From the NCBI RefSeq assembly GCF_913063425.1, contig NZ_CAJXYK010000034.1, forward strand, positions 911 through 64,910: a stretch of 64,000 bases of DNA. Direction: 5' to 3'. Position numbers and translations under genes: made by a program. The stretch is from an uncultured Thiohalocapsa sp. (GTDB lineage: Bacteria > Pseudomonadota > Gammaproteobacteria > Chromatiales > Chromatiaceae). Under the pieces are notes generated by a model, which worked only from the letters and a program-made list of their open reading frames with translations, searched no databases and was not told the origin of the DNA. Shown piece by piece: positions 4,890 through 57,684 of this stretch. Each line of letters opens with the position of its first letter. The first letter of the stretch is position 1.

Positions 4890-4905
4890 AGGTGTGATAC
4901 TTGCT
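4890..4905 (+). promoter_or_regulatory. Candidate sigma54 promoter of the PEP-CTERM-type genes
   Basis: AGGTGTGATACTTGCT fits GG-N10-GC with TTGCT; AT-rich stretch upstream; TGT-N11-ACA palindrome at 4799-4815. Confidence 0.4.
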
Positions 4906-4999
4906 TAGCGGTCAGTGGTACTCTTATCTCTACATCAGTGAACCGCGCCAAAGCTGGTACAGTACCGGCGCTGATCCCCCTGTCGCTCCGGAGCTCCCG

Positions 5000-6853
5000 A
5001 TGCCCAAGCGTATTCCCCTCGCTGCTGCCGCCCTGCTGGCCGGTGCTGTGACGCCCGCTGCGGCCGTCCAAACGGTCCAGCTTGGCTCCATCACCGACGT
5101 CGAAACTGCCACATCGGAGGTCGCCGCTTACAACGAATGGGCTGCCAACTGCCCGAACGTGTCCACCAGCGGTCTCGGCTGCGGTGCGGTGGTCGCTCCG
5201 CTAGACAGCGATCGCACCCTCTTCTTCTGGGGCGCGCGTGGGAATACCAACAACACCACCATCGAAGTGGAGTGGACGGGCACGCAGCCGAGCGAAGTGA
5301 TCCGAAACGTCGCCATTCGTACTGCGGACACCGAGCCCATGGGCCCGGCAAGCGGCCCCCGATCCTTCCGCTTTGCCCCCAGCTTTGTCCCGGGCACTTG
5401 GGAAGCGAATTTTGGCGCGCCGACACAGGGAGAGGGGCTCTTCCTGGCGTATGGGCGGAACGAATATGCGTTCGATTCCTCTGGCGGCGCCGCAGAGTGG
5501 GAATCCACCAGAACTGCGCCGTACTTCGTTGCAAGCTTCAACGCCTCGGTGAGTCTGCCTGGGCTCGCCGCGGAAGACATCGTGGTCGATGGGACACCCT
5601 TCCAGCTCTTCGATCCTTTTCCCAACCAAGATGGTACCGCGATCAGTACGGCGCAGCCCTTCCCAGTAGACATTCTCACGGAGCTTCCGCAGAGCAAGCG
5701 GGGCAGCCTCAGTAATGGCGACGTATTGACCATCGAGTTGTTCGTGGGCAGTGCAACCTCTCCCGTGCCAGGCGACGTGCCGGTCGGCTTCATGGATGAC
5801 ATCAGCATCCAGCTCAACGTGGGGCCGCGTCTGGAGCTGGACCCGGCGAAGGCGACCACACCCGGTGTGCCGGATGTCGAGCTCGGGGACGTGCGTGCGG
5901 GGACATCTGGTACGGCGGGCGACATCACGGCGGAGAACACCGGTGAGGCGCTGAGCGGCAACCCCACGCTGGAGCTGACGTTCAATGCGGTCACAGGTGA
6001 TACGACGCAGATCGCAGCCGGCGACGGCGGCAGTTTGAACGACAGCATCGACTTGGCGCCGGGCGACACCTTCACCCGCAGCTTCACGCTCGACGGCAGC
6101 GGCATCGACCTCGATCTCACGGACACCGACGGGCAAACCTTCCAGGTGACGCAGGAAGTGAGCCTGCGAAACCCGAACGACTTCATCCAGAATCCGGATG
6201 ACCTCGCTGACCCGACCGGCCCGCAGACGCGCACCGTGTCCGGGACGGTGGTGGGTCCGATTCTCGGCGTCAGGGCCGACGACGGCGCCCGGTACCTGCC
6301 CTACAACTCCAGCGCTGACGCAGATAAGATCGACCTCGGCACGGTGGAGATCGGAACTGATCCACCGGGCCTGCAGAAGCTGCTCATCGAAAATTTGTTT
6401 GGCGCCGATCTCGGTATGCTGACATCACTCAGTCTGCTCAATGTGGGCATCGATGACGCCTCGGATCCGCGCAACTACTACTGCATTCTGACCGCAATGA
6501 CCGGTGACTGTGCCAGTGGCGCGGAGATCGCCAGCGCGTTCGAGAAGATCATCCTCGGTGACGGCAATCTGGTGTCCACTGACGGCTCGCAAGGAAGCGG
6601 GACGACCCCCCTGCCGGACATGTGGATCCAATTCGACCCGACCCGCAACGTCACGGACTACGAAGCCATCCTGTTCTTCGAAACCGACATGAATACCGCC
6701 TTCGGCAACAACAGTGGCCGCCTCAGCTTCACGCTGACCGGCTCCAGCTTCGGCTATGAGCCGACGCCGACGCCCGCCTCCCTTGCCCTGATCGGTTTGG
6801 GGCTGGCGGGGCTTGCGGGTGTGCGGGCGCGGCGCGCGTCGGCGCGGCGGTAA
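5000..6853 (+). CDS. Large secreted PEP-CTERM-type surface protein (choice-of-anchor D-like C-terminal half)
   Basis: Signal peptide MPKRIPLAAAALLAGAVTPAAA; acidic Thr/Asp/Gly-rich body; C-terminal PTPASLALIGLGLAGLAGVRARR. Confidence 0.8.
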   Translation: MPKRIPLAAAALLAGAVTPAAAVQTVQLGSITDVETATSEVAAYNEWAANCPNVSTSGLGCGAVVAPLDSDRTLFFWGARGNTNNTTIEVEWTGTQPSEVIRNVAIRTADTEPMGPASGPRSFRFAPSFVPGTWEANFGAPTQGEGLFLAYGRNEYAFDSSGGAAEWESTRTAPYFVASFNASVSLPGLAAEDIVVDGTPFQLFDPFPNQDGTAISTAQPFPVDILTELPQSKRGSLSNGDVLTIELFVGSATSPVPGDVPVGFMDDISIQLNVGPRLELDPAKATTPGVPDVELGDVRAGTSGTAGDITAENTGEALSGNPTLELTFNAVTGDTTQIAAGDGGSLNDSIDLAPGDTFTRSFTLDGSGIDLDLTDTDGQTFQVTQEVSLRNPNDFIQNPDDLADPTGPQTRTVSGTVVGPILGVRADDGARYLPYNSSADADKIDLGTVEIGTDPPGLQKLLIENLFGADLGMLTSLSLLNVGIDDASDPRNYYCILTAMTGDCASGAEIASAFEKIILGDGNLVSTDGSQGSGTTPLPDMWIQFDPTRNVTDYEAILFFETDMNTAFGNNSGRLSFTLTGSSFGYEPTPTPASLALIGLGLAGLAGVRARRASARR

Positions 6854-8966: not shown

Positions 8967-9185
8967 ATGCCCATCGTCCCCTGCTTCGACAGGGGCGAGG
9001 CACGCCGAGCGGATGCCCCCTCTCAGGCTCCCTGTCGGGGATTGGCGCAGGTCAAGCCTCGCGGGAGCGGTGCCAGACCGCTCTCGGCTGGACCTCTTGC
9101 AGGCCATGGCGGTCCGGCGGCCTAATACTTTATGCTGCGCGCTGGAAGCATTAAGCAGCCTGACCCGTCAGCCCGTTCCCGACCC

Positions 9186-10106
9186 GTGCACTTCGACATC
9201 CAAGCCTTCCGCAACTGGCAGCACCGCAGCGTCACGCTGCTCGGCATGTCCGGGGTCGGCAAGACCTACCTGTCCGCCCTGCTGCGGCGCAGTGACTGGT
9301 TCCACTACTCCGGCGACTATCGTATCGGCACCCGCTACCTGGATGAGCCCATCCTGGACCTGATCAAGTCCAAGGCCATGGAAGTGCCCTTCCTGCGCGA
9401 CCTGCTGCGTCGGGACTGGATCGCCATCCAGAACAAGATCGCGGTGGACAACCTGGGCCCTGTGCTGAGCTTCGTCGGGCAGCTCGGGGACCCGGACAAG
9501 AACGGGCTGTCCTTGCAGGAGTTCAATCGCCGCCAGGCCATGTACCGGGAGGCCGAGATCCAGGCCATGCGCGACGTGCCGGCCTTCATCGACAAGGCCC
9601 GGCGTATCTACGGCTACAGCCACTTTGTGAACGACGTGGGCGGCAGCCTGTGCGAGCTGGAGGCACCGGAGGTCATCGACCTGCTCGCCCGCCACACGCT
9701 GATCCTCTACATCCGTGTGCCGCAGCAGGACGAGATCAAGCTCATCCGCCGCGCCCAGGCAGACCCCAAGCCGCTCTACTTCCGCCCGGCGTTCCTCAAG
9801 TCCGCCGTCAAGGATTACCTCGCCGAGCGCGGGCTGACCTATGTGGCGGACATCGACCCGGACGACTTCACCCGCTGGGTCTTCCCGCGGCTCTTCCACT
9901 CCCGTGTGCCCCGCTACGAGGCCATCGCCCGCCCCCACGGCTATGTGGTGGAGTCCACGGAGGTGGCCGCCGTCCGCGACGAGCAGGACTTCCTTGCGCT
10001 CATCGAAACGGCCATCGCGCGCAAGGCGGCCGGCGGCGACACCGCGGGCTATCCTGCCTCCACCGGCGCCACACCGCCGCCCGCGGAGCCCGACGCCACC
10101 GCCTGA
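9186..10106 (+). CDS. P-loop ATPase/kinase-like protein upstream of metA
   Basis: Walker A GMSGVGKT; YSGDYRIGTRY; NDVGGSLCE; GTG start inferred. Confidence 0.8.
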   Translation: MHFDIQAFRNWQHRSVTLLGMSGVGKTYLSALLRRSDWFHYSGDYRIGTRYLDEPILDLIKSKAMEVPFLRDLLRRDWIAIQNKIAVDNLGPVLSFVGQLGDPDKNGLSLQEFNRRQAMYREAEIQAMRDVPAFIDKARRIYGYSHFVNDVGGSLCELEAPEVIDLLARHTLILYIRVPQQDEIKLIRRAQADPKPLYFRPAFLKSAVKDYLAERGLTYVADIDPDDFTRWVFPRLFHSRVPRYEAIARPHGYVVESTEVAAVRDEQDFLALIETAIARKAAGGDTAGYPASTGATPPPAEPDATA

Positions 10107-38385: not shown

Positions 38386-41016
38386 ATGGCGAAGAAGCAC
38401 AAGAAGCGGTCCGGTCGCGGCACCCCGAAGTCCGCGCAGCAGGCCCAGCAGGCGAGCCCGGAGGTCCGCGCGCGTGCGGCGCAGGACGCGCTGGCGCAGG
38501 GCCGGTTCCGCGATGCCGTCGGCGGTTTCAAGGCGCTGCTCAAGGAGGATGCGGCCAGCGAGCACACCCCGGCGCGCCGCCTCGCCCTCGCCGAGGCCTA
38601 TGCCGGCCGCGCGCGGGAGTTGACTGCCAAGGGCATGCACAAAGAGGCGCTCGCCATCTGGGACAACCGGGCGGCCCTCGGCCCGGAGGTGCCGCCGGCA
38701 CCGGAGCACGCCGCGCTGAAGCTGCGCCTCGGCGACCCTGGGCCGCTGTTGGCGCTGTGGGCGCGCGCGGATGCGCTGCCCCGTGACGAGCGCGAGCAGA
38801 TCGGCACCTGGCTCGCCGCCGCCGCGCTGGCCGATGCCGCACCGGGGCTGCAAGGGCTTGCGGCAGACGACCCGCTGCGCCGCCACGCCGAGCCCGCGCG
38901 CGCTGCGCTCGACGCCTATTGCGCCGGGGACGACGCGGCCCTGGAGTCGGCGCTGGCGGGCATCCCATTCCGCTCACCCTACCGCGACCTCGCGCTGCTG
39001 CTGAAGGCGTTGAGCCGCCTCGAGGCCGAGCCGGCGACGAGCCGCGATCTGCTCGCGCGCATCGGCGCTGCGTCCGCCTTTGCGCCCCTGCGCCAGGCGG
39101 CCGAGGCGGCGCTGCTGTCGGATGCCGATTGCCTGGACGCGCTGCACCGGCTTGGCCCCCGCCAGGCGCAGCTGGCCGCCGCCCTGCGCGGCTGGTCCGC
39201 CGAGCAGCTCGCGTTGGCCCGGGAGGTCGCGGCCATGGACGCCCCGCTGGACGCGCCGGCGGACGCCGACGCCCGCAAGGCCCTGCTGCGGCTCCTGGAG
39301 CGTCACCGCGAGCTGCTCGGCCGCGATTGGGCCGCGCGAGCTGCCCGGCGGCTGTCGGCGTCGCTGCCCGGAGCCGGCGGCGGGCGGCATGCGCCGGCAT
39401 CGCGTGCACGGGATCTGATCGAAGACACGCTGTCCGAGGCGCTCGCCGCTGCGCATGCGGCGGAGGCCGACGGTCATCCCTGGAATGTCCTGAATGCCTG
39501 GGACGATGTCGCCGAGGTGCTGCGGGTGGCGGCGGAGGCCGAGCCGACGGACCCGGACCGGCCCGTGGCGATCGCGCTGGCGTTGCGCCGGGCCGATCAG
39601 TACTTCGACCTCCTCGGCGTGGATGTGCCCGATACGGAGCCGGACTCCGAGCAGTCTGTCGCCGCCGAGCAGCTCGCGCGCAGCCTGGAATGGGACCCGG
39701 AGCACCGGGACACCTATCTGCGCCTCATCGGCTGGTACCGCCGCGGCGCCCGACTCAAGGACGCGCGCCGGGTGCTGGCGGCGGCGCAGGCGCGCTGGCC
39801 GCGCGATATGGCCGTGCTGGAGGCGGCGCTCGACACCGCCCTGGCCGGGGACGCCTTCAAGAAGGCCGCCGGCATCGCCCGGCAGATGCTGGACATCGAC
39901 CCCATCAACAGCGGCGCGCGGCGGCGCCTGGTGGATGCCCACATCGCCCACGCCGCCAAGCAGCTCGGGAAGGATCGTCCCGACTTGGCAAGTAAAGAGC
40001 TGCATCAGGCACGGCAATGGACCCAGCGCGGCGCGGGCCTTCAGACCTTGCGCGAGCGTCTCGACTTCATGCAGGCGCTGGCGAGGCTGCACGTCGTCGG
40101 CGTCGATGCCGGCCGCAAGCGCGTGCAGGAGCTGCTGGAGCAGTGCGGCCCGGGGCCGGTGGCGCAGCTGGAGCTGGCCCTTGCCGCCGAGCTGCTACTC
40201 TTCGATCAGGTCAAGCTCTTCGAATTACTCGATCTGCCCAAGGTCAAGCTGCAGGCCCCGGGCGATCTCAGACTCATCCTCACCCGACTGCGGGAATTCG
40301 CGGAGCGGCGCAAGCGCTACGCGGTGAGCCTGGTCGATTGGCTGAAGACCCTGCTGCAGGGGGCGCCCTGGAAGCAACTGGACGCCGAGGCGCTGGAGCT
40401 CGCCTGCGAGACCCTGCGGCGGATGCGCCTGAGCGCGCCGCGCCGGGAGGCCGCCGGTGCGGCGCTGAAGTGCTGGGCGGGAACGCCCGCGTTCGTCTTT
40501 CATGCGCTGGAGAGCAAATACGACGAGTCCGGGAGCCCGGGGGCGGCCGACCGCGTCAAGCTGGAGCAGGCCCTGGAGCGCGCCGAGCGCGACGGCGATG
40601 CGCGCACCGTCAGCCGGCTGCTGTCGCTGCGGGAGACATTCTGGCCCTTCAGTGGCTTCCCGCCGTCGGGCTTCGATCACCTGCTGGATGACGCGGGCGA
40701 TGACGAGCCGTTCGACCTGCCTGACCCCCGGCTCGATCCAGGCGCCGATGAGGTTGCAGCGAACCTGCTGGACAAGCTCGATCGCCTGCCGTTGCGCCAG
40801 GCGCTGGAGGCCTGCGGGATTCCCAAGTCCCTGCGCAAGCGATTGTTGAAGCTCGCCCGTGACGAGGGCGAAGCCTTTGTCAGAGAGCAGCTCAAGCAAC
40901 TGTTGCGCGACACCGAGGCGAGCTTCCACGCCGAAGACGCACCGACCGAAGCGCGCGGCCGCCGCAGTGGGCGTCAACCAGACGACGACCATCCCGAGCA
41001 ACTGGATCTCTTTTGA
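38386..41016 (+). CDS. Large TPR/alpha-helical protein ending in QLDLF
   Basis: Basic N-terminus MAKKHKKR, TPR-like helical repeats, C-terminal EQLDLF-stop. Confidence 0.8.
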   Translation: MAKKHKKRSGRGTPKSAQQAQQASPEVRARAAQDALAQGRFRDAVGGFKALLKEDAASEHTPARRLALAEAYAGRARELTAKGMHKEALAIWDNRAALGPEVPPAPEHAALKLRLGDPGPLLALWARADALPRDEREQIGTWLAAAALADAAPGLQGLAADDPLRRHAEPARAALDAYCAGDDAALESALAGIPFRSPYRDLALLLKALSRLEAEPATSRDLLARIGAASAFAPLRQAAEAALLSDADCLDALHRLGPRQAQLAAALRGWSAEQLALAREVAAMDAPLDAPADADARKALLRLLERHRELLGRDWAARAARRLSASLPGAGGGRHAPASRARDLIEDTLSEALAAAHAAEADGHPWNVLNAWDDVAEVLRVAAEAEPTDPDRPVAIALALRRADQYFDLLGVDVPDTEPDSEQSVAAEQLARSLEWDPEHRDTYLRLIGWYRRGARLKDARRVLAAAQARWPRDMAVLEAALDTALAGDAFKKAAGIARQMLDIDPINSGARRRLVDAHIAHAAKQLGKDRPDLASKELHQARQWTQRGAGLQTLRERLDFMQALARLHVVGVDAGRKRVQELLEQCGPGPVAQLELALAAELLLFDQVKLFELLDLPKVKLQAPGDLRLILTRLREFAERRKRYAVSLVDWLKTLLQGAPWKQLDAEALELACETLRRMRLSAPRREAAGAALKCWAGTPAFVFHALESKYDESGSPGAADRVKLEQALERAERDGDARTVSRLLSLRETFWPFSGFPPSGFDHLLDDAGDDEPFDLPDPRLDPGADEVAANLLDKLDRLPLRQALEACGIPKSLRKRLLKLARDEGEAFVREQLKQLLRDTEASFHAEDAPTEARGRRSGRQPDDDHPEQLDLF

Positions 41017-41375
41017 TGTCTGACCCCTATCTCACCCTCGGCGTGGCGCCAGGCGTGGACGACGCCGCCGTCGAGCAGGCCTACCGCAACGCCATCAAGC
41101 GCTGCCCGCCCGATCGGAACCCGGCCGCGTTCCAGGCCGTGCGCGCCGCCTACGAGCGCCTGCGTACCCGCCGCGACCGTGTCGCGTACGAGCTGTTCGA
41201 CGCCGAGCCGCCGGCACCGCTCGATCTGCTGCGCCGCGCCCTGACTGCCCCCGGTGCGGGGCCCGCTGCCGCGCCCAGTGCCGCGCCCAGTGCCGCGCCC
41301 AGTGCCGCCTCCGGTCCTGACCGCCGCCGCCCCGACCCTGACCTGCTGCGGGCGCTGCTGCGCGGGGAGGCGTAG
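41016..41375 (+). CDS. Small atypical J-domain protein
   Basis: DPYLTLGV...AYR...CPPDRNP..FQAVRAAYERL; PPD instead of HPD. Confidence 0.8.
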   Translation: MSDPYLTLGVAPGVDDAAVEQAYRNAIKRCPPDRNPAAFQAVRAAYERLRTRRDRVAYELFDAEPPAPLDLLRRALTAPGAGPAAAPSAAPSAAPSAASGPDRRRPDPDLLRALLRGEA

Positions 41376-42079
41376 GTGGAGGACGCTGCCAAGGACGCCC
41401 TCGCCGCCCGCTTCCGCGCCTATCTGGACCTGCCGCCCGCACCCGAGGTGCCGGCGTCGGTGTCCGCGGAGGCGCCGCCGGCGCCGGACCTGTTCACGCT
41501 GCTCGCGGAGGTCGCGGCACTCAAGAACGAGGTCAAGCTCGAATCCCGCCAGGTCAAAGGCGCCCTGGACGAGTTCCGCGGCCTGTTCGAGACGCTCAAG
41601 AGCGCCCACGACCGGCTCGCGGACGAGCAGCAGCGCCGCCGCGAGCACGAGCGCGCCGCCCAGGCCCGGGAGCACCGGGACCTGCTGCTGGAGCTCCTGG
41701 AGCTGCGCGATCGGATGCAGGCCGGGCACGCCAGCGCCGCGGGTCACCGGCCCCGGGGGCTGTTCGGGCGGCGGCGGGTCCGCGCCTTTGCCGCCGCCAT
41801 GGCCGATGGCCAGGCCATGAGCCTGCGCCGCCTGGACGAGACCCTGGCGCGGCGCGGCGTCCGGCCGCTGGCGGCGGTGGGCCAGCCCTTCGACCCGCAC
41901 CGCATGCACGCCGCAGAAGTGGAGTCCGACCCGGCGCGGCCCGCGGGCGAAGTGATCCGGGAGCTGCGCCCGGGCTTCCTGCTCCACGGTGAGCTGCTGC
42001 GCCTGGCGGAGGTGGTCGTGAACCGCCCCGACGCCGTCACCGCCCCGGCGCCGTCACCGACACAGATCGAGACCAAGAC

Positions 42080-42083
<4 letters not shown>
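41376..42083 (+). CDS. GrpE-family nucleotide exchange factor (paralog)
   Basis: Coiled coil, then VGQPFDPHRMHA...LRPGF...LLRLAEVVVN. Confidence 0.85.
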
Positions 42084-43842
<1,759 letters not shown>

Positions 43843-43843
<1 letters not shown>

Positions 43844-44142
43844 TGGAGCGCTGCCCCAACTGCCGCGCCCGCACCGACGGCACCGACACCTGCCGGCGCT
43901 GCGGCATGGCGCTCGGGCTGCTTCAGGCCACCGAGCGCGCCGCCGAGCACTGGCTGCGCCTGGGCATCGCCCACCTCGCCGCGGGCGCGCCGCAGGCCGC
44001 CACCCGAGCACTCAACCGCTCCCTGGCACTGCGCCACGATCCCCTCGCCGAGGAGCTGCTGGAGCTGGCGCCGGGGCTCGTGCGGCAGTTGCCGGGCGCA
44101 GCCGCCGCATCCGGATCGCCCGACGGCTCCCGCGAAACCTGA
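43843..44142 (+). CDS. Zn-ribbon + TPR small protein
   Basis: CPNC...CRRC followed by a helical TPR-like segment; TGATG overlap. Confidence 0.7.
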
Positions 44143-44589
44143 AAGGTTGTGACGAAACGCACCTCCGCTGCTGCGGACGCCTCCGAGCGTGCCCGGAGAC
44201 GTCCTCGCGACGGCGGGCGGATGGTCCACACCCGCTGAGCCGGCGAAAAAGTCCTGCGCCGCGACTCAGAACCTGCTAACGTGAGAACGGAGGACCGCCG
44301 GTTGCCGGCCTCAGGCCGTCCGGCACAAGGCATCTGCCATTTCGACGAGACCGCCCGGTCTGCTCCGGCGCCACGCCGCCGCCCAGGCCCCGCCCGCTCC
44401 CCACGAGATCCGTAGCATCCTGCCTCCTCCTGCCGTCCCGGCGCCGCTGGCTCACCAGCCGCGTCGGCGGCCGTCTGCCGCTGCCGCGGCGCCGCCCCGC
44501 GCACCTGAAGCCCCACCGGGCGACCTTGAGCGGGACGCTGAAGCGGCGGCAGTCACAGCATCCGCAACCAGACTCCGCGAGGACACTTG

Positions 44590-44877
44590 ATGAACATCTA
44601 CGTCGGCAACCTTCCCTACAGCGTCACTGAGGGCGATCTGCGCGAGACCTTCTCGCAGTACGGCAGCGTCGACACCGTCAACATCATCACCGACCGTTTC
44701 AGCGGCGACTCCAAGGGCTTCGGCTTCGTGGAAATGGGCAACAACTCCGAGGCGGATGCTGCCATCAAGGCGCTCAACGGCACTGACTACAAGGGCCGGA
44801 ACATCACCGTGAACCAGGCCCGCCCGAAGAGCGACCGCCCGGCGCGCGGCGGTGGTGGCGGGGGCCGTCGTTGGTAA
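44590..44877 (+). CDS. RRM RNA-binding protein with Gly-rich tail
   Basis: IYVGNLPY, SKGFGFVEM, GGGGGRRW. Confidence 0.95.
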   Translation: MNIYVGNLPYSVTEGDLRETFSQYGSVDTVNIITDRFSGDSKGFGFVEMGNNSEADAAIKALNGTDYKGRNITVNQARPKSDRPARGGGGGGRRW

Positions 44878-45623: not shown

Positions 45624-47009
45624 TTGTCTTCAACAGCTGACCCAGAACCGCTGATCGTCCCGCGCGCGGAGCACAGCATCTCGCGCAGCAACATCAGTCA
45701 AAATGCGCTCAAGGTCCTGTACCGCCTGCGCGATGCAGGCCACGCGGCATATCTCGTCGGCGGCGGCGTGCGCGACCTGCTGCTCGGGCACGAGCCCAAG
45801 GACTTTGATGTGGCCACGGACGCCACGCCCGAGGAAGTGCGCCAGGTGTTCCGTAATTGCCGGCTCATCGGCCGTCGTTTTCGGCTGGCGCATGTGTTCT
45901 TCGGGCCGGAGATCATCGAGGTCGCCACGTTTCGCGCCAGCGCCATCCCCGCGGGGCAGGACGGCACCGACGACGACGGCGCGCGCACCGAGAACGGCAT
46001 GATCCTGCGCGACAACGTCTACGGCAGCATCGCCGAGGACGCGCTGCGGCGGGATTTCACGGTCAATGCCCTCTATTACAACATTGCCGACTTCTCGGTG
46101 GTGGACTACGCAGGTGGCCTGGAAGACCTCAAGGCCGGGCGGCTCAGGCTTATCGGCGACGATGTGGAGGCCCGCTACCGCGAGGACCCGGTGCGCATGC
46201 TCCGGGCGGTGCGCTTCGCGTGCAAGCTGGGCTTCATGATCGATGCGCCCTGCGAGACCCCATTGCCGGAGCTGGCGCCCCTGCTGGGCGAGGTGCCGGC
46301 GGCGCGGCTGTTCGAGGAGGTGCTGAAGCTCTTCCATGCCGGCTATGGTCTGCATGCCTTCGAGAAGCTGCGCCACTACGGGCTGTTCGCGCAGCTCTTC
46401 CCGGCCGCCGATGCCTGTCTCGCGCGACAGGAGCACGAGTTCCCGATGGTCTTCGTGAGCCGCGGCCTGGACAACACCGACCGCCGCGTGCTGGACGGCA
46501 AGTCGGTGGTGCCGCCGTTCCTGTTCGCGGTGCTGCTGTGGGAGCCGGTGCGGCTGCGCTATGAGGCGCTGCTGGATGGCGGCACGCCCTGGGCGGACGC
46601 CATGGCGCTCGCGTCCCACGAGGTCGCCTCGGCCCAGCAGCGGCATGTGGCCATCCCCAAGCGCTTCGGCATGCCCATGCGCGAGATCTGGTCCCTGCAG
46701 CCGCGGCTTGAGCGCCGCCAGGGGCGCCGGCCCATGGCGCTGCTCGGCCATCCGCGCTTCCGGGCAGCCTACGACTTTCTGCTGCTGCGGGCCGAGGCCG
46801 GCGAAGTGGACCCGGAGCTGGCCGATTGGTGGACCAAGTTCCAGGACGCCAATCCGGGCGACCGCGCCAAGATGACCGGCGCGGGCAAGCGCCGCCGCCC
46901 GCGCCGGCGCCGCAAGCCGAAGGACGCCGCCGGGGGCTCCGGCAGCGAGGGCAGCGAGCGGGTGGCCGGGCTCCAGGGGCGCGCTGCCGGGGGTGACGGC
47001 GATGGCTGA
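45624..47009 (+). CDS. pcnB: Poly(A) polymerase I
   Basis: GGGVRDLLLG..PKDFDVAT, LIGRRFRLAHV, RRDFTVN, REDPVRMLR, RFRAAYDFL; TTG start uncertain. Confidence 0.95.
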   Translation: MSSTADPEPLIVPRAEHSISRSNISQNALKVLYRLRDAGHAAYLVGGGVRDLLLGHEPKDFDVATDATPEEVRQVFRNCRLIGRRFRLAHVFFGPEIIEVATFRASAIPAGQDGTDDDGARTENGMILRDNVYGSIAEDALRRDFTVNALYYNIADFSVVDYAGGLEDLKAGRLRLIGDDVEARYREDPVRMLRAVRFACKLGFMIDAPCETPLPELAPLLGEVPAARLFEEVLKLFHAGYGLHAFEKLRHYGLFAQLFPAADACLARQEHEFPMVFVSRGLDNTDRRVLDGKSVVPPFLFAVLLWEPVRLRYEALLDGGTPWADAMALASHEVASAQQRHVAIPKRFGMPMREIWSLQPRLERRQGRRPMALLGHPRFRAAYDFLLLRAEAGEVDPELADWWTKFQDANPGDRAKMTGAGKRRRPRRRRKPKDAAGGSGSEGSERVAGLQGRAAGGDGDG

Positions 47010-55651: not shown

Positions 55652-57193
55652 TCAGGCCGACAGGGCCGCGGCCTCGGCAGGCGCGTCCAGCCGGCCCTCC
55701 GCCAGCAGCTCCCGGTAGACGGCGGCGACCGCGTCCTCGATGGGCTCCATCGCGTGCTCCCCGTTGGGCACCAGGCCGGCGGCCTCGAGGCGGTCCCAGG
55801 GCTCGATGCCGATCTTCGAGCAGAGCACGCCGGTGACGCCCTCCAGGGTGCGGATGGTCTTGCCCAGCGCGTCCTCGGCCTCGCCGCAGGTGTCGCCGCC
55901 GGCGCAGTAGAGGTCCACCTTGCGGGCGGCGAGGAAGCGCACGTCCACGCCCTCGCCGACGCCGGCGGCCTCGTAGATCAGAAACTCCCGGGCGTGGCCG
56001 AAGTGCTCGTTGATGACACCGCTGCCCGTGGTGGCGACGGCGAAGCGGGCTGTGGGCGCCGCAGCAGGTGCCGGCCGCGGCTTGCTGCGCTTGAGGGACG
56101 TGATCGGGACGAAGGTCTCGCTGGGCTGATCGGGGCGTTGCTGCTGCTGCGCCGTCCGGTTGGCCTCGATGGCCGCGTGCACCTCGGCGCGGCGGGCCAT
56201 GGCGGCTTCGTAGTCGATGTCCATGGCCGCGACCTTCTCATTGGTGAACTCCGCACCCCGATCCTCGCCCAGCATGCCGACGGCGTCCGCGCGGCACTGC
56301 CGGCAGTGGCGCATCATGGCCATGTCCCCGGCGCACGCGTCCTGCAGCGCCTGCAGCTCCTCATTGCTCGGCCCGCGCTGGCCCATGAGCCCATAGAAGG
56401 TGCCGTGCTCGGGCTCGGCGATGAGCGGCATCACGTTGTGCAGGAAGGCGCCCTTGGCCTTGACGACCCGGCTGACTTCTTTGAGGTGCGCGTCGTTGAC
56501 GCCCGGGATCAGCACCGAGTTGACCTTCACCAGCACGCCCCGGTCGCAGAGCATCTGGAGCCCTTTCTGCTGCTGCTCGATGAGGATTTTCGCGGCCTTC
56601 ACGCCCTTGATGCGGCGGTTGTTCCAGAAGATCCACGGGTAGATCTTGGCGCCGATCTCGGGGTCCACGCAGTTGATGGTGATGGTGACGTGGTCGATGT
56701 TGTGCTGGCAGATCTCGTCCACCAGCTCCGGCAGTGCCAGGCCGTTGGTGGAGACGCAGAGCTTGATGTCCGGGGCCTTTGCAGACAATTCGCGGAAGGT
56801 GGCCAGCGTGCGCTCCGGGTTCGCCAGCGGGTCGCCGGGTCCGGCGATGCCGAGCACCGTCATCTGCGGGATCTCCGCCGCCACCGCCAGCGTCTTGGCC
56901 ACCGCCTGCTCCGGCGTCAGCAGCTCCGAGACCACACCCGGGCGCGACTCATTGGAGCAGTCGTACTTGCGGTTGCAGTAGTGGCACTGGATGTTGCAGG
57001 CCGGTGCCACCGCCACATGCATCCGCGCGTAGTGGTGATGCGCGTCCTCCGAGAAGCACGGATGGTTGTGCACCTTGGCGCGGATGTGCTCCGGCAGGTG
57101 CGCGAGCTTGTCGGAGCCTGAGCCGCAGCCGCTTGAAGAGCAGCCGCCGCCGGCGGCAGGTGACTTGGGTTGGTCCAGTGCTTCGAGCGCCAT
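55652..57193 (-). CDS. nifB: FeMo-cofactor biosynthesis radical SAM protein with NifX-like C-domain
   Basis: HPCFS, CNIQCHYCNRKYDC, AGPGDPLAN, MRHCRQCRADA, INEHFGHA. Confidence 0.98.
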   Translation of the reverse strand: MALEALDQPKSPAAGGGCSSSGCGSGSDKLAHLPEHIRAKVHNHPCFSEDAHHHYARMHVAVAPACNIQCHYCNRKYDCSNESRPGVVSELLTPEQAVAKTLAVAAEIPQMTVLGIAGPGDPLANPERTLATFRELSAKAPDIKLCVSTNGLALPELVDEICQHNIDHVTITINCVDPEIGAKIYPWIFWNNRRIKGVKAAKILIEQQQKGLQMLCDRGVLVKVNSVLIPGVNDAHLKEVSRVVKAKGAFLHNVMPLIAEPEHGTFYGLMGQRGPSNEELQALQDACAGDMAMMRHCRQCRADAVGMLGEDRGAEFTNEKVAAMDIDYEAAMARRAEVHAAIEANRTAQQQQRPDQPSETFVPITSLKRSKPRPAPAAAPTARFAVATTGSGVINEHFGHAREFLIYEAAGVGEGVDVRFLAARKVDLYCAGGDTCGEAEDALGKTIRTLEGVTGVLCSKIGIEPWDRLEAAGLVPNGEHAMEPIEDAVAAVYRELLAEGRLDAPAEAAALSA

Positions 57194-57278
57194 CGCGCGT
57201 CCCCCTTGCAATCGGTCGTGTTCGATGCGGCACCGGCCGGCGGTGCAGAGCATGATTCGCAGTGCCTGGCAGGGTTTA

Positions 57279-57294
57279 AGCAAGCACCGTGCCG
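57279..57294 (-). promoter_or_regulatory. sigma54 (-24/-12) promoter of nifB
   Basis: Minus strand CGGCACGGTGCTTGCT. Confidence 0.85.
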
Positions 57295-57367
57295 GCATAC
57301 TCCAGGTTGCGCAGGTGATTGTTTGCAAAGGGATGCGTGGGATGCGTGCGTCAGCGGGCCGCGGGCT

Positions 57368-57383
57368 TGTCGCAAGCGTGACA
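57368..57383. promoter_or_regulatory. NifA upstream activator sequence
   Basis: TGT-CGCAAGCGTG-ACA (TGT-N10-ACA), about 75 bp beyond the -24 box. Confidence 0.85.
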
Positions 57384-57580
57384 GGTGGGGAAGGTCGGAT
57401 TGTCGGGTCCGGTACCGGGCTTGTGTGGCTGGTCAGGCCGTCATTCGCCACCGACGCAACGCCGCGGTTGGTCTGTGGGCGGCCCGTGCCTGGCCCGGTT
57501 TCGGCATCTGGGCGGCGCCGTTCGCCGCCGCACGCCGGCCCAGGTACGCGAGCGCGTCGCCGGCCGCTGCACTCGTTGCA

Positions 57581-57684
57581 CTCGTTCCCAAGCTCTGCTT
57601 GGGAATGCGGTCCCGAAGCTCCGCTTCGCGTCGCTCGGGAAGCAGAGCTTCCCGGCCGAGTTCCCAAGCGTAGGTTGGGAACCA
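57581..57684. repeat. REP-like multi-palindrome element
   Basis: TTCCCAAG-CTCTG-CTTGGGAA, GAAGC-TCC-GCTTC, GGAAGC-AGA-GCTTCC, TTCCCAA-N7-TTGGGAA. Confidence 0.75.

What the first reader, a model, noticed from the sequence alone, without database searches (positions are those of the whole stretch)
40996..41016. The TPR protein ends in a canonical beta-sliding-clamp motif (QLDLF)
Seen: GAG CAA CTG GAT CTC TTT TGA = EQLDLF-stop, after a flexible charged linker. Established: QL[S/D]LF is the consensus DnaN-binding motif and is often at a C-terminus. Inference: the Hsp70 module is tethered to clamp-loaded DNA, where it could sense or dismantle host or phage replication forks.
Basis: partly seen in the sequence, partly recalled or inferred. 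Interest (0 to 1): 0.72.

Follow-up and report, generated by a model that had tools for sequence, protein, structure and literature searches.

The report
Clamp-binding tail on an Hsp70 scaffold
A large repeat protein that heads an undescribed five-gene Hsp70 chaperone operon ends in a conserved five-residue tail, QLDLF, identical to the peptide that binds the bacterial DNA sliding clamp most tightly, which suggests (untested) that the chaperone machine is recruited to replicating DNA.

Summary
The ORF at 38386-41016 (876 aa) ends in ...DDDHPEQLDLF-stop at 40996-41016.

The motif is conserved, not a chance match:
- Qxx[LMIF][FL] lies in the last 9 residues of 143 of 243 full-length family members, against 0.5% of internal 9-residue windows.
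- It persists down to about 30% identity and across several gammaproteobacterial families.
- Synonymous codons vary freely, so selection acts on the peptide.
- Positions 1, 4 and 5 (Q, L, F) are the most conserved, and these dominate clamp binding in published work.

AlphaFold2 places the motif at the end of a disordered, first basic then acidic, tail behind an all-helical TPR-like solenoid.

The gene heads a strictly syntenic, self-contained operon: scaffold, J-like protein (HPD replaced by PP[D/E]), GrpE, divergent Hsp70, small zinc-ribbon protein. It has no conserved neighbours, no plasmid or phage copies and no PADLOC match.

The best reading is a beta-clamp-binding motif that tethers a dedicated Hsp70 machine to clamp-loaded DNA. 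Binding itself is untested. About a quarter to a third of members have lost the motif, so it is accessory.

The parts
38386..41016 (+). Scaffold gene: 876-aa TPR-like alpha-solenoid protein, first gene of the operon.
   Evidence: ORF and translation. 174 close homologues and 1750 cluster representatives at E<=1e-3. AlphaFold2 model with pLDDT 88.9. Foldseek finds only TPR scaffolds.
38386..38427 (+). Conserved basic N-terminal tail (MAKKHKKRSGRGTP; family pattern M-x-K-K-x-K-[RK]-R).
   Evidence: N-termini of 255 family members. pLDDT below 50 for residues 1-12.
38428..40641 (+). All-helical solenoid, residues 15-752.
   Evidence: Secondary structure and pLDDT. Foldseek hits TTC7B, Ski3, IFT-A, Ctr9, APC/C and OGT TPR.
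40744..40932 (+). Small helical C-terminal domain, residues 787-849, joined to the solenoid by a disordered linker (753-786).
40933..40998 (+). Disordered tail, residues 850-871: a basic patch (RGRRSGR) followed by an acidic patch (PDDDHPE).
   Evidence: pLDDT below 50. The family tail pattern is basic, then D-rich at -6 to -4, P at -2 and D/E at -1.
40999..41013 (+). QLDLF pentapeptide (residues 872-876), a candidate beta-clamp-binding motif. The stop codon is at 41014-41016.
   Evidence: Conservation statistics. Codon analysis.
41016..41375 (+). J-like protein, 119 aa. Its ATG overlaps the scaffold stop codon (TGATG). The HPD tripeptide is replaced by PPD.
   Evidence: PF00226 at E=5.5e-9. 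PP[D/E], SPE or PAE stands at the HPD position in all 75 loci.
41376..42083 (+). GrpE-like nucleotide exchange factor, 235 aa.
   Evidence: PF01025 at E=2e-20. It scores below every NCBIfam GrpE equivalog cut-off.
42080..43843 (+). Divergent Hsp70 paralogue, 587 aa, with a remodelled SBD-beta loop L1,2 and an invariant C-terminus ...DLIYYLE[ST].
   Evidence: PF00012 at E=5e-147. It scores 537 bits against the DnaK equivalog cut-off of 648. Alignment to DnaK 2v7y. Family alignment.
43843..44142 (+). Fifth gene: small zinc-ribbon protein (CPNC...CRRCG) with a TPR-like helical hairpin, 99 aa.
   Evidence: Conserved directly after the Hsp70 gene in nearly every locus long enough to hold it. Weak TPR/MamA hits.

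Best explanation
The last five residues of the scaffold protein are a short linear motif that docks into the hydrophobic pocket of the beta sliding clamp (DnaN). They sit at the end of a roughly 27-residue disordered tail that is first basic and then acidic. The motif would therefore tether the solenoid, and the dedicated J-like/GrpE/Hsp70/zinc-ribbon machine made from the same translationally coupled operon, to clamps loaded on DNA at or behind replication forks. There the Hsp70 would remodel or remove proteins bound to the clamp or to DNA.

Shown: the motif, its disorder, its family-wide conservation at the peptide level, and the operon.

From established knowledge: QLDLF and Qxx[LM]F bind the clamp, and Hsp70 systems disassemble replication complexes.

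Inferred: this protein binds DnaN in vivo, it carries the Hsp70 machine with it, and the identity of the client.

My estimate is about 0.6 that the tail binds the clamp for some purpose, and about 0.5 for the tethering model as stated.
For: 1. The sequence is an exact match to the consensus QL[S/D]LF. Published work identifies QLDLF as the tightest-binding pentapeptide, with a Kd of about 0.1 uM for the E. coli clamp.

2. The conservation profile mirrors the published binding-energy profile. In 98 close homologues with the tail, Q is at position 1 in 83, L at position 4 in 85 and F at position 5 in 98. Position 2 is L in 62, F in 13 and M in 4. Position 3 is D in 74. Positions 1, 4 and 5 are the ones reported to matter most, position 2 tolerates substitution, position 3 prefers Asp, and Q-to-N is mild. 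N is the most frequent polar replacement of Q here: 3 of 98, behind Leu in 4 non-canonical LSD[LF]F tails.

3. Distant members keep Q-x-[DEGS]-L-F followed by acidic residues, for example NQKDLFDD and QGDLFE. This matches the Qx[D/E][L/M]F consensus of the Mor/MuC family. MuC itself (QHDLF) was shown to bind the clamp in a two-hybrid assay.

4. The acidic flanks match the negatively charged flanks described for clamp-binding motifs.

5. The motif is in a disordered tail, as in Pol II and Pol IV.

6. Selection is on the peptide. Codons are CAA/CAG 24:24 for Q, six Leu codons at position 4, and GAC/GAT for D. The motif is kept where the stop codon lies 11-23 nt from the next start.

7. About a third of tails carry 1-3 extra residues after the F. 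The clamp pocket tolerates this, whereas carboxylate-dependent receptors would not.

8. Loss of the motif is not accompanied by any consistent change in the Hsp70, J-like, GrpE or zinc-ribbon proteins. The best column association covers 8 or fewer of the 17-18 motif-less loci. This fits an invariant partner outside the operon.

9. Basic tails at both ends of the protein fit association with nucleic acid.

10. Hsp70 systems have a long record of taking apart replication complexes: lambda O-P-DnaB, RepA, RepE and RctB (PMC8215388).
Against: - No binding data exist, and no co-fold could be run.
- Roughly 25-40% of family members lack the motif but keep the operon, and the motif was lost many times: about 38 changes on a 236-tip tree. 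Clamp tethering cannot be essential to the machine.
- Position 2 is P, K, G, R or T in a minority of members, and position 4 is P in 7 of 98. Such variants would be weak clamp binders.
- The extended conservation upstream of the motif (DDD-x-P-[DE]) goes beyond what known clamp-binding motifs need. It could point to another receptor.
- A constitutive, optimal clamp-binding motif could be toxic, as MuC, TnsE and TrfA are when overexpressed. Expression would need to be low, or the tail masked.
- No replication or repair gene is linked to the operon.
Confidence: 0.5

Rival explanations
1. The motif docks inside the operon's own machine. It could be the dedicated recognition peptide of the operon's specialised Hsp70, as LPPVK of IscU is for HscA. 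It could also fold back onto the TPR groove or onto the zinc-ribbon/TPR protein, acting as a pseudo-substrate, an autoinhibitor or a hand-off signal. The match to the clamp motif would then be coincidental.
For: - The Hsp70 is specialised. It scores below the DnaK equivalog cut-off.
- Its SBD-beta loop L1,2 is replaced family-wide by GTSAxxExxGxxYP[YF], so the DnaK arch Met is absent.
- The motif has a Leu/Phe core of the kind Hsp70s like.
- HscA/IscU is a precedent for one operon-encoded client peptide.
- The upstream DDD-x-P-[DE] conservation exceeds what a clamp-binding motif needs.
Against: - Negatively charged residues disfavour DnaK-type binding (PMC8215388), and the motif is embedded in acid.
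- The invariant spacing Q-x-x-L-F with a conserved Gln is the hallmark of the clamp motif and has no Hsp70 rationale.
- A quarter to a third of members lost the motif with no compensating change in the Hsp70, J-like, GrpE or zinc-ribbon proteins.
- AlphaFold2 with a 77-sequence alignment shows no confident docking of the tail onto the solenoid; pLDDT is below 50.
- Extra residues after the F in about a third of tails argue against an EEVD-type carboxylate clamp on a TPR.
Confidence: 0.2
2. The tail does bind the clamp, but its job is to occupy or regulate the clamp. It would act as a replication or RIDA brake, or as a competitor of polymerases whose availability the Hsp70 machine controls. It would not be there to deliver the chaperone to clients.
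For: - The motif is the optimal, sub-micromolar version.
- Proteins with strong clamp-binding motifs perturb replication when abundant: MuC, TnsE and TrfA.
- The tail could be masked or unmasked through its basic and acidic patches.
Against: - A large, highly conserved solenoid and four co-translated chaperone genes are a lot of machinery for a simple competitor.
- The motif is lost often without loss of the operon.
- Many members carry weakened variants such as QKDLF and QGDLF.
Confidence: 0.1
3. The tail addresses some other hub. One option is an SSB-C-terminus-like acidic tail (DDDIPF type) recognised by SSB-interacting proteins. Others are an unknown receptor or a protease adaptor.
For: - An acidic run followed by a terminal hydrophobic residue and Phe resembles the SSB tail.
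- A few distant members end in ...DDSDSEIPF...NFPF or ...GFPF.
- Position 4 is Pro in 7 of 98 tails.
Against: - Gln at position 1 occurs in 85% of tails and has no counterpart in SSB tails.
- The penultimate residue is Leu in 87% and Pro in only 7%. From my own knowledge, the Pro of IPF is critical in SSB.
- About 36% of tails carry residues after the Phe, which removes the free Phe carboxylate that SSB-type pockets need.
- No known degron resembles an acid-flanked LF end.
Confidence: 0.1
4. The conservation is a by-product of nucleotide-level constraint from the overlapping start and ribosome-binding site of the next gene, and is not a protein motif.
For: The stop codon overlaps the ATG of the J-like gene (TGATG or ATGA) in most loci.
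Against: - Synonymous codons vary freely at all five positions.
- The motif is retained in the 14 of 54 loci where the stop is 11-23 nt from the next start.
- The overlap explains only the occasional extra residue after the F.
Confidence: 0.01

Closest known systems
C-terminal beta-clamp-binding motifs of Pol II (QLGLF), Pol IV (QLVLGL), B. subtilis Pol Y1 (QLDLF) and Pol III alpha (Dalrymple consensus QL[S/D]LF)
   Same: A pentapeptide with the same or near-identical sequence, at the end of a disordered tail, with negatively charged flanks. Positions 1, 4 and 5 are the most constrained.
   Different: The carrier is not a polymerase, repair or replication protein. It is an 876-aa TPR-like scaffold encoded with an Hsp70 system. 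Binding to DnaN is not demonstrated.
Mor/MuC transcription activators of phage Mu (N-terminal QHDLF; family consensus Qx[D/E][L/M]F)
   Same: A non-replication protein family carrying a conserved terminal clamp-binding motif, with the same degenerate consensus as the distant members here. It is a precedent for using the clamp as a landing pad for other machinery.
   Different: The motif is N-terminal. The proteins are small, phage-encoded DNA-binding proteins, and there the clamp dependence has been shown experimentally.
Site-tethered Hsp70 machines: the ribosome-associated complex (zuotin/Ssz/Ssb) and the mitochondrial import motor (Tim44 scaffold, Pam18 J protein, Pam16 J-like protein without HPD, Mge1 = GrpE, mtHsp70). 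This comparison is from my own knowledge.
   Same: A dedicated Hsp70 with its own exchange factor, a J or J-like partner and a scaffold that fixes the machine at one cellular site. A J-like protein lacking HPD is part of the set.
   Different: Those systems are eukaryotic or organellar. Here the proposed anchor is the DNA sliding clamp, there is no HPD-bearing J protein in the operon, and there is no homology between the scaffolds.
HscA/HscB/IscU (a specialised bacterial Hsp70 that recognises the single peptide LPPVK in its operon-encoded client)
   Same: A specialised Hsp70 with an altered substrate-binding domain, a minimal J partner, and a conserved short peptide in an operon partner.
   Different: HscB has HPD, and HscA works without a dedicated GrpE in the operon (from my own knowledge). 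The peptide here is acid-flanked, terminal, frequently lost, and identical to a motif for another receptor.
GAP1-N2 GTPase-centred conflict systems with Hsp70 and GrpE and FNIII proteins fused to DnaJ or TPR (Kaur et al. 2020, PMC7159879)
   Same: Hsp70, GrpE and a J or TPR component encoded together outside the housekeeping dnaK operon.
   Different: Those systems are built around a GTPase, occur in actinobacteria and firmicutes, and carry effectors. None of that is present here.

Membership tests
Beta-sliding-clamp-binding motif (CBM) proteins | Pentapeptide Q-phi-x-[LM]-F (consensus QL[S/D]LF) or hexapeptide Q-phi-x-L-x-L. | tested here: met
   QLDLF at residues 872-876. The consensus is as given in PMC11139829 and bioRxiv 10.64898/2026.05.27.728225.
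Beta-sliding-clamp-binding motif (CBM) proteins | The motif is exposed in a disordered terminus or loop. | tested here: met
   pLDDT below 50 for residues 851-876, with no secondary structure.
Beta-sliding-clamp-binding motif (CBM) proteins | The motif is conserved in homologues, with positions 1, 4 and 5 the most constrained. | tested here: met
   Q in 83, L in 85 and F in 98 of 98 tails, while positions 2 and 3 are looser. 143 of 243 family members have Qxx[LMIF][FL] at the end, against a 0.5% background. The motif is inferred to be ancestral. It is absent from about 25-40% of members.
Beta-sliding-clamp-binding motif (CBM) proteins | Physical binding to the DnaN pocket that is abolished by mutating the motif. 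| not testable with these tools
   No DnaN is encoded in the window.
Canonical DnaK-DnaJ-GrpE system | The Hsp70 scores as a DnaK equivalog. | tested here: not met
   NF001413 scores 536.6 bits against a cut-off of 648. TIGR02350 scores 522.5 against 822.55. Loop L1,2 of the SBD-beta is remodelled.
Canonical DnaK-DnaJ-GrpE system | The J domain carries the HPD tripeptide. | tested here: not met
   The window protein has CPPDRN. PP[D/E], SPE or PAE stands at this position in all 75 loci. HPD is essential in every system tested (PMC8215388).
Canonical DnaK-DnaJ-GrpE system | A GrpE-fold nucleotide exchange factor. | tested here: met
   PF01025 scores 73.5 bits against a cut-off of 25.8. It is below all NCBIfam equivalog cut-offs.
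TPR repeat proteins | A significant match to a TPR profile. | tested here: inconclusive
   The window protein has no Pfam or NCBIfam hit at E<=0.01. Many homologues have precomputed PF14559, PF13432 or PF13428 hits, some of them weak or faint.
TPR repeat proteins | A superhelix of paired antiparallel helices. | tested here: met
   The AlphaFold2 model shows about 40 helices in a solenoid. The top 50 Foldseek hits are all helical-repeat scaffolds, mostly TPR-type (probability 1.0 but TM-scores of only 0.11-0.45).
SSB C-terminal-tail mimics | An acidic run ending in [I/L]-P-F with a free Phe carboxylate. | tested here: not met
   The penultimate residue is Leu in 85 of 98 tails and Pro in 7 of 98. 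35 of 98 tails have residues after the F. A conserved Gln is present.
Known anti-phage defence systems | A match to a defence-system protein model, or a defence-island or mobile context. | tested here: not met
   No PADLOC hit for any of the five proteins. No phage or plasmid copy. The flanking genes are housekeeping and differ from locus to locus.

The most novel reading that the evidence does not exclude
Purple sulfur bacteria and some relatives have a dedicated Hsp70 machine associated with the replisome or the sliding clamp. The machine consists of a solenoid scaffold, an HPD-less J-like protein, GrpE, an Hsp70 with a remodelled substrate site and a zinc-ribbon protein. The scaffold's C-terminal QLDLF docks it on the sliding clamp, and the machine strips or remodels proteins on newly replicated DNA. 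This would be the DNA counterpart of the ribosome-associated and import-motor Hsp70 systems, and a chaperone class not previously linked to the clamp.
Probability: 0.35. Interest if true: 0.85.

Novelty: new variant of a known kind. Interest (0 to 1): 0.68.

Why it matters
Known partners of the sliding clamp are polymerases, repair and initiation-control proteins, some transposases, and (recently) phage transcription factors. The full-text library searched here holds no paper that links a clamp-binding motif to an Hsp70 system.

If the tail binds DnaN, the clamp would also serve as a landing pad for ATP-driven protein remodelling. That would give a direct route to asking what has to be unfolded or evicted on replicating DNA.

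Independently of the motif, the operon is an undescribed, self-contained Hsp70 system. Its J-like partner lacks the supposedly indispensable HPD tripeptide. That makes it of interest to chaperone biochemists.

Everything is testable with a peptide, a purified clamp and a two-residue mutant.

Tried and rejected
1. Nucleotide-level constraint from the overlapping start or ribosome-binding site of the next gene was rejected by codon analysis.

2. Chance occurrence was rejected by the family statistics and the background rate.

3. Defence system: PADLOC gave no hits, there is no plasmid or phage copy, and no effector or conserved neighbour exists. The Hsp70/GrpE conflict systems of Kaur et al. are built differently.

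4. Looking up the window protein's own contig found nothing on record.

5. I looked for a receptor within the operon that co-varies with the motif. No column in the Hsp70, J-like, GrpE or zinc-ribbon proteins tracks motif presence. This test is weak because of shared ancestry.

6. Intramolecular docking of the tail: AlphaFold2 gives none with confidence.

7. Foldseek on the scaffold returns only generic TPR scaffolds with low TM-scores, so no functional lead emerged.

8. The promoter and terminator scan of the operon was uninformative.

9. I considered co-folding the tail with DnaN or with the Hsp70 substrate-binding domain.

10. Literature searches for a clamp motif together with a chaperone found nothing relevant.
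Full report
**1. The observation**

Window 40996-41016 reads GAG CAA CTG GAT CTC TTT TGA, which is EQLDLF-stop. It ends a long ORF. By comparison with homologues that all begin M-[AS]-K-K, the ORF starts at the ATG at 38386 and encodes 876 aa. The stop codon shares its last base with the ATG of the next gene.

Downstream lie a J domain (PF00226), a GrpE (PF01025) and an Hsp70 (PF00012). A 99-aa ORF follows, which turns out to be a conserved zinc-ribbon protein. All five genes are packed head to tail: GrpE begins directly after the J-like stop codon, and the other three junctions overlap by 1 or 4 nt.

The flanks are housekeeping genes: argG divergently upstream, then an RRM protein, pcnB, folK, panB and panC downstream. 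The window has 69% G+C.

**2. Is the motif more than chance?**

A search of the 5.8-billion-protein collection returned 174 homologues, all from Chromatiaceae-like gammaproteobacteria. Reading their C-termini gives the following:

- 98 of 118 full-length homologues end in x-x-x-[L/F/P]-F plus 0-3 residues.
- Position 1 is Q in 83 of these.
- Position 2 is L in 62, F in 13 and M in 4.
- Position 3 is D in 74.
- Position 4 is L in 85.
- Position 5 is F in 98.
- Upstream, positions -6 to -4 are mostly Asp, -2 is Pro and -1 is Asp or Glu. Before that comes a variable Pro/Lys/Arg-rich stretch.

A profile search of 1.84 billion cluster representatives found 1750 relatives at E<=1e-3 and 530 at E<=1e-30. 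The more distant ones keep a degenerate form, Q-x-[D/E/G/S]-L-F, often followed by D or E, for example NQKDLFDD, QGDLFE and QFDLF.

Over all 243 full-length members, Qxx[LMIF][FL] lies in the last nine residues of 143. The same pattern occurs in 0.5% of internal nine-residue windows of the same proteins. The strict Q[LMF]xLF occurs in 90, against a background of 0.009%.

Eighty loci from GTDB species representatives show the same tail in Sedimenticola, Thioalkalivibrio, Aquisalimonas, Halomonas ventosae, and in MAGs of Granulosicoccaceae and Methylococcaceae.

**3. Peptide or nucleotide constraint?**

Because the stop codon overlaps the next start, I checked codons in 54 loci. Gln is CAA or CAG in a 24:24 split. 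Leu at position 4 uses six codons. Asp uses GAC and GAT. The motif is also retained where the stop lies 11-23 nt from the next start. Selection is therefore on the peptide.

The 1-3 extra residues after the Phe in about a third of tails arise where the next ATG overlaps as ATGA.

**4. Anatomy of the carrier**

AlphaFold2 with a 77-sequence alignment gave a confident model with mean pLDDT 88.9:

- a disordered basic N-terminus;
- an all-helical solenoid at residues 15-752;
- a disordered linker;
- a small helical domain at 787-849;
- a disordered tail at 851-876 that carries the motif, with no confident docking back onto the solenoid.

Foldseek finds only generic TPR-type scaffolds with low TM-scores: TTC7B, Ski3, IFT-A, Ctr9, APC/C and OGT. 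The window protein has no Pfam hit of its own, but homologues carry weak TPR_19 and TPR_14 hits. 'TPR-like scaffold' is a fair label.

**5. The operon**

The order scaffold / J-like / GrpE / Hsp70 / zinc-ribbon is kept in every fetched locus long enough to show it. Nothing outside these five genes is conserved. The commonest flanking cluster occurs in 9 of about 65 loci.

There are no plasmid or phage copies and no PADLOC hit. The operon occurs in at least 14 named Chromatiaceae genera and sporadically elsewhere.

The components are unusual:

- The J-like protein has PP[D/E], rarely SPE or PAE, in place of HPD in all 75 loci. HPD has been essential in every system tested (PMC8215388).
- The Hsp70 scores below the DnaK equivalog cut-offs.
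- The Hsp70 keeps the R-I-I-N-E-P-T segment that contacts the J domain and the DVTP linker.
- It has a family-wide replacement of SBD-beta loop L1,2.
- It ends in an invariant ...[ST]-D-L-[IV]-[YF]-Y-L-E-[ST].

**6. What the motif most likely does**

QL[S/D]LF is the Dalrymple consensus for binding the beta clamp. QLDLF is the strongest pentapeptide. Substitutions at positions 1, 4 and 5 are the most damaging, position 2 is tolerant, position 3 prefers Asp, Q-to-N is mild, and flanks tend to be negative (PMC11139829; Kd 0.10 uM in bioRxiv 10.64898/2026.05.27.728225). The conservation profile in this family reproduces that pattern position by position.

The degenerate consensus of the distant members equals the Qx[D/E][L/M]F of the Mor/MuC family. 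MuC itself (QHDLF) was shown to bind the clamp in a two-hybrid assay.

I therefore think the tail docks on DnaN and tethers the scaffold, and with it the dedicated Hsp70 machine, to clamp-loaded DNA. Hsp70 systems already have classical roles in dismantling replication complexes, so a remodelling role at the fork is plausible. The client, however, is unknown.

The basic N-terminal tail and the basic patch of the C-terminal tail would fit contact with nucleic acid. Members without the motif mostly end in that basic patch, for example ...RKRNRAKRKRR.

**7. What speaks against it, and the rivals**

Binding is untested. A tree built from the protein body alone, with Fitch parsimony, makes the motif ancestral with about 38 changes over 236 tips. 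Shuffled labels give about 56. The motif has thus been lost many times while the operon stayed. In Thiocapsa marina a stop codon now precedes a decayed remnant of the motif. The tail is an accessory.

Four points argue against this:

- the acidic context, since negative charge disfavours DnaK-type binding;
- the conserved Gln;
- the lack of any column in the four partner proteins that tracks motif loss (a weak test);
- the lack of predicted intramolecular docking.

*Rival 2: the tail binds the clamp to block or regulate it.*

*Rival 3: an SSB-tail-like or other receptor.* The Gln, the Leu rather than Pro at the penultimate position, and the frequent residues after the Phe argue against this. 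A handful of distant members do end in IPF or FPF.

*Rival 4: a nucleotide-level artefact.* This is refuted.

**8.

The idea that the module senses or dismantles phage or host forks is not supported by context, and I treat it as speculation.

**9. Novelty**

The full-text searches found no paper that connects a clamp-binding motif with an Hsp70 or other chaperone system. They also found no description of this five-gene operon. The nearest published Hsp70/GrpE gene clusters are GTPase-centred conflict systems of different composition.

The motif is a known kind. Its carrier, and the operon behind it, are a new variant.

**10. Verdict**

This is a real, conserved short linear motif, and most probably a clamp-binding motif. 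I put the probability that it binds the clamp for some purpose at about 0.6, and the tethering model as stated at about 0.5. It is an interesting and cheaply testable lead.

Noticed in passing
window 41016-41375 (J-like gene; HPD position at about 41103-41111): The J domain lacks the HPD tripeptide. The window protein has C-P-P-D-R-N, and PP[D/E] (rarely SPE or PAE) stands at this position in all 75 loci. The Hsp70 keeps the R-I-I-N-E-P-T segment that normally contacts HPD. The protein is either a non-stimulating J-like regulator or a co-evolved, non-canonical J-Hsp70 interface.
   Followed up: partly
window 43810-43840 (C-terminus of the Hsp70): The Hsp70 ends in a near-invariant ...[ST]-D-L-[IV]-[YF]-Y-L-E-[ST]-COOH in 65 loci, unlike the variable charged tail of DnaK. 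It could be the peptide that docks the Hsp70 on the TPR scaffold or on the zinc-ribbon/TPR protein, by analogy with EEVD.
   Followed up: no
window about 43240-43300 (Hsp70 SBD-beta, after the DVTP linker): Loop L1,2 of the substrate-binding domain (GIETMGG in DnaK) is replaced family-wide by a longer conserved G-T-S-A-x-x-E-x-x-G-x-x-Y-P-[YF]. This implies a changed client specificity.
   Followed up: partly
window 43843-44142: The 99-aa ORF after the Hsp70 gene is a real, conserved fifth gene. It has an N-terminal zinc ribbon (M-E-R-C-P-N-C-R-A-R...C-R-R-C-G-M) followed by a TPR-like helical hairpin and a variable tail.
   Followed up: partly
window 38386-38427: The scaffold's N-terminus is a conserved, disordered, strongly basic peptide (M-x-K-K-x-K-[KR]-R-x-x-R) across the whole family. 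It may contact nucleic acid or membrane.
   Followed up: no
L002/L041 (Thiocapsa marina), L002 10620-10775: In the Thiocapsa clade the scaffold stops right after the basic patch (...RKRARAKRKRR). A gap of about 150 nt before the J-like gene still reads through to ...DPPDAVQQPSDPDLM, which looks like a decayed remnant of the acidic patch and motif.
   Followed up: partly
P0192, P0233, P0170, P0239 (distant family representatives): A few distant members end in ...DDSDSEIPF, ...NFPF, ...GFPF or ...PFFPFPF. These resemble an SSB C-terminal tail more than a clamp motif.
   Followed up: no
window 41013-41016, 41373-41378, 42080-42083, 43841-43845: The five genes are packed head to tail. Three junctions overlap by 1 or 4 nt (TGATG or ATGA), and GrpE begins immediately after the J-like stop codon. 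This indicates translational coupling and probably fixed stoichiometry.
   Followed up: partly
window 44587-44877 and 45624-47009: A 96-aa RRM-type RNA-binding protein lies just upstream of pcnB (poly(A) polymerase), followed by folK, panB and panC. This neighbourhood is not conserved with the Hsp70 operon.
   Followed up: no
window 4901-6853 and 9132-10106: Two sizeable ORFs (650 aa and 324 aa) have no Pfam hit at E<=1e-4. The second has coding-like GC3 of 0.90; the first did not pass the same GC3 screen and may not be a real gene.
   Followed up: no
window 55652-57667 (- strand): A radical-SAM domain fused to a dinitrogenase FeMo-cofactor-binding domain, the architecture of NifB. This suggests that the organism is a diazotroph.
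   Followed up: no
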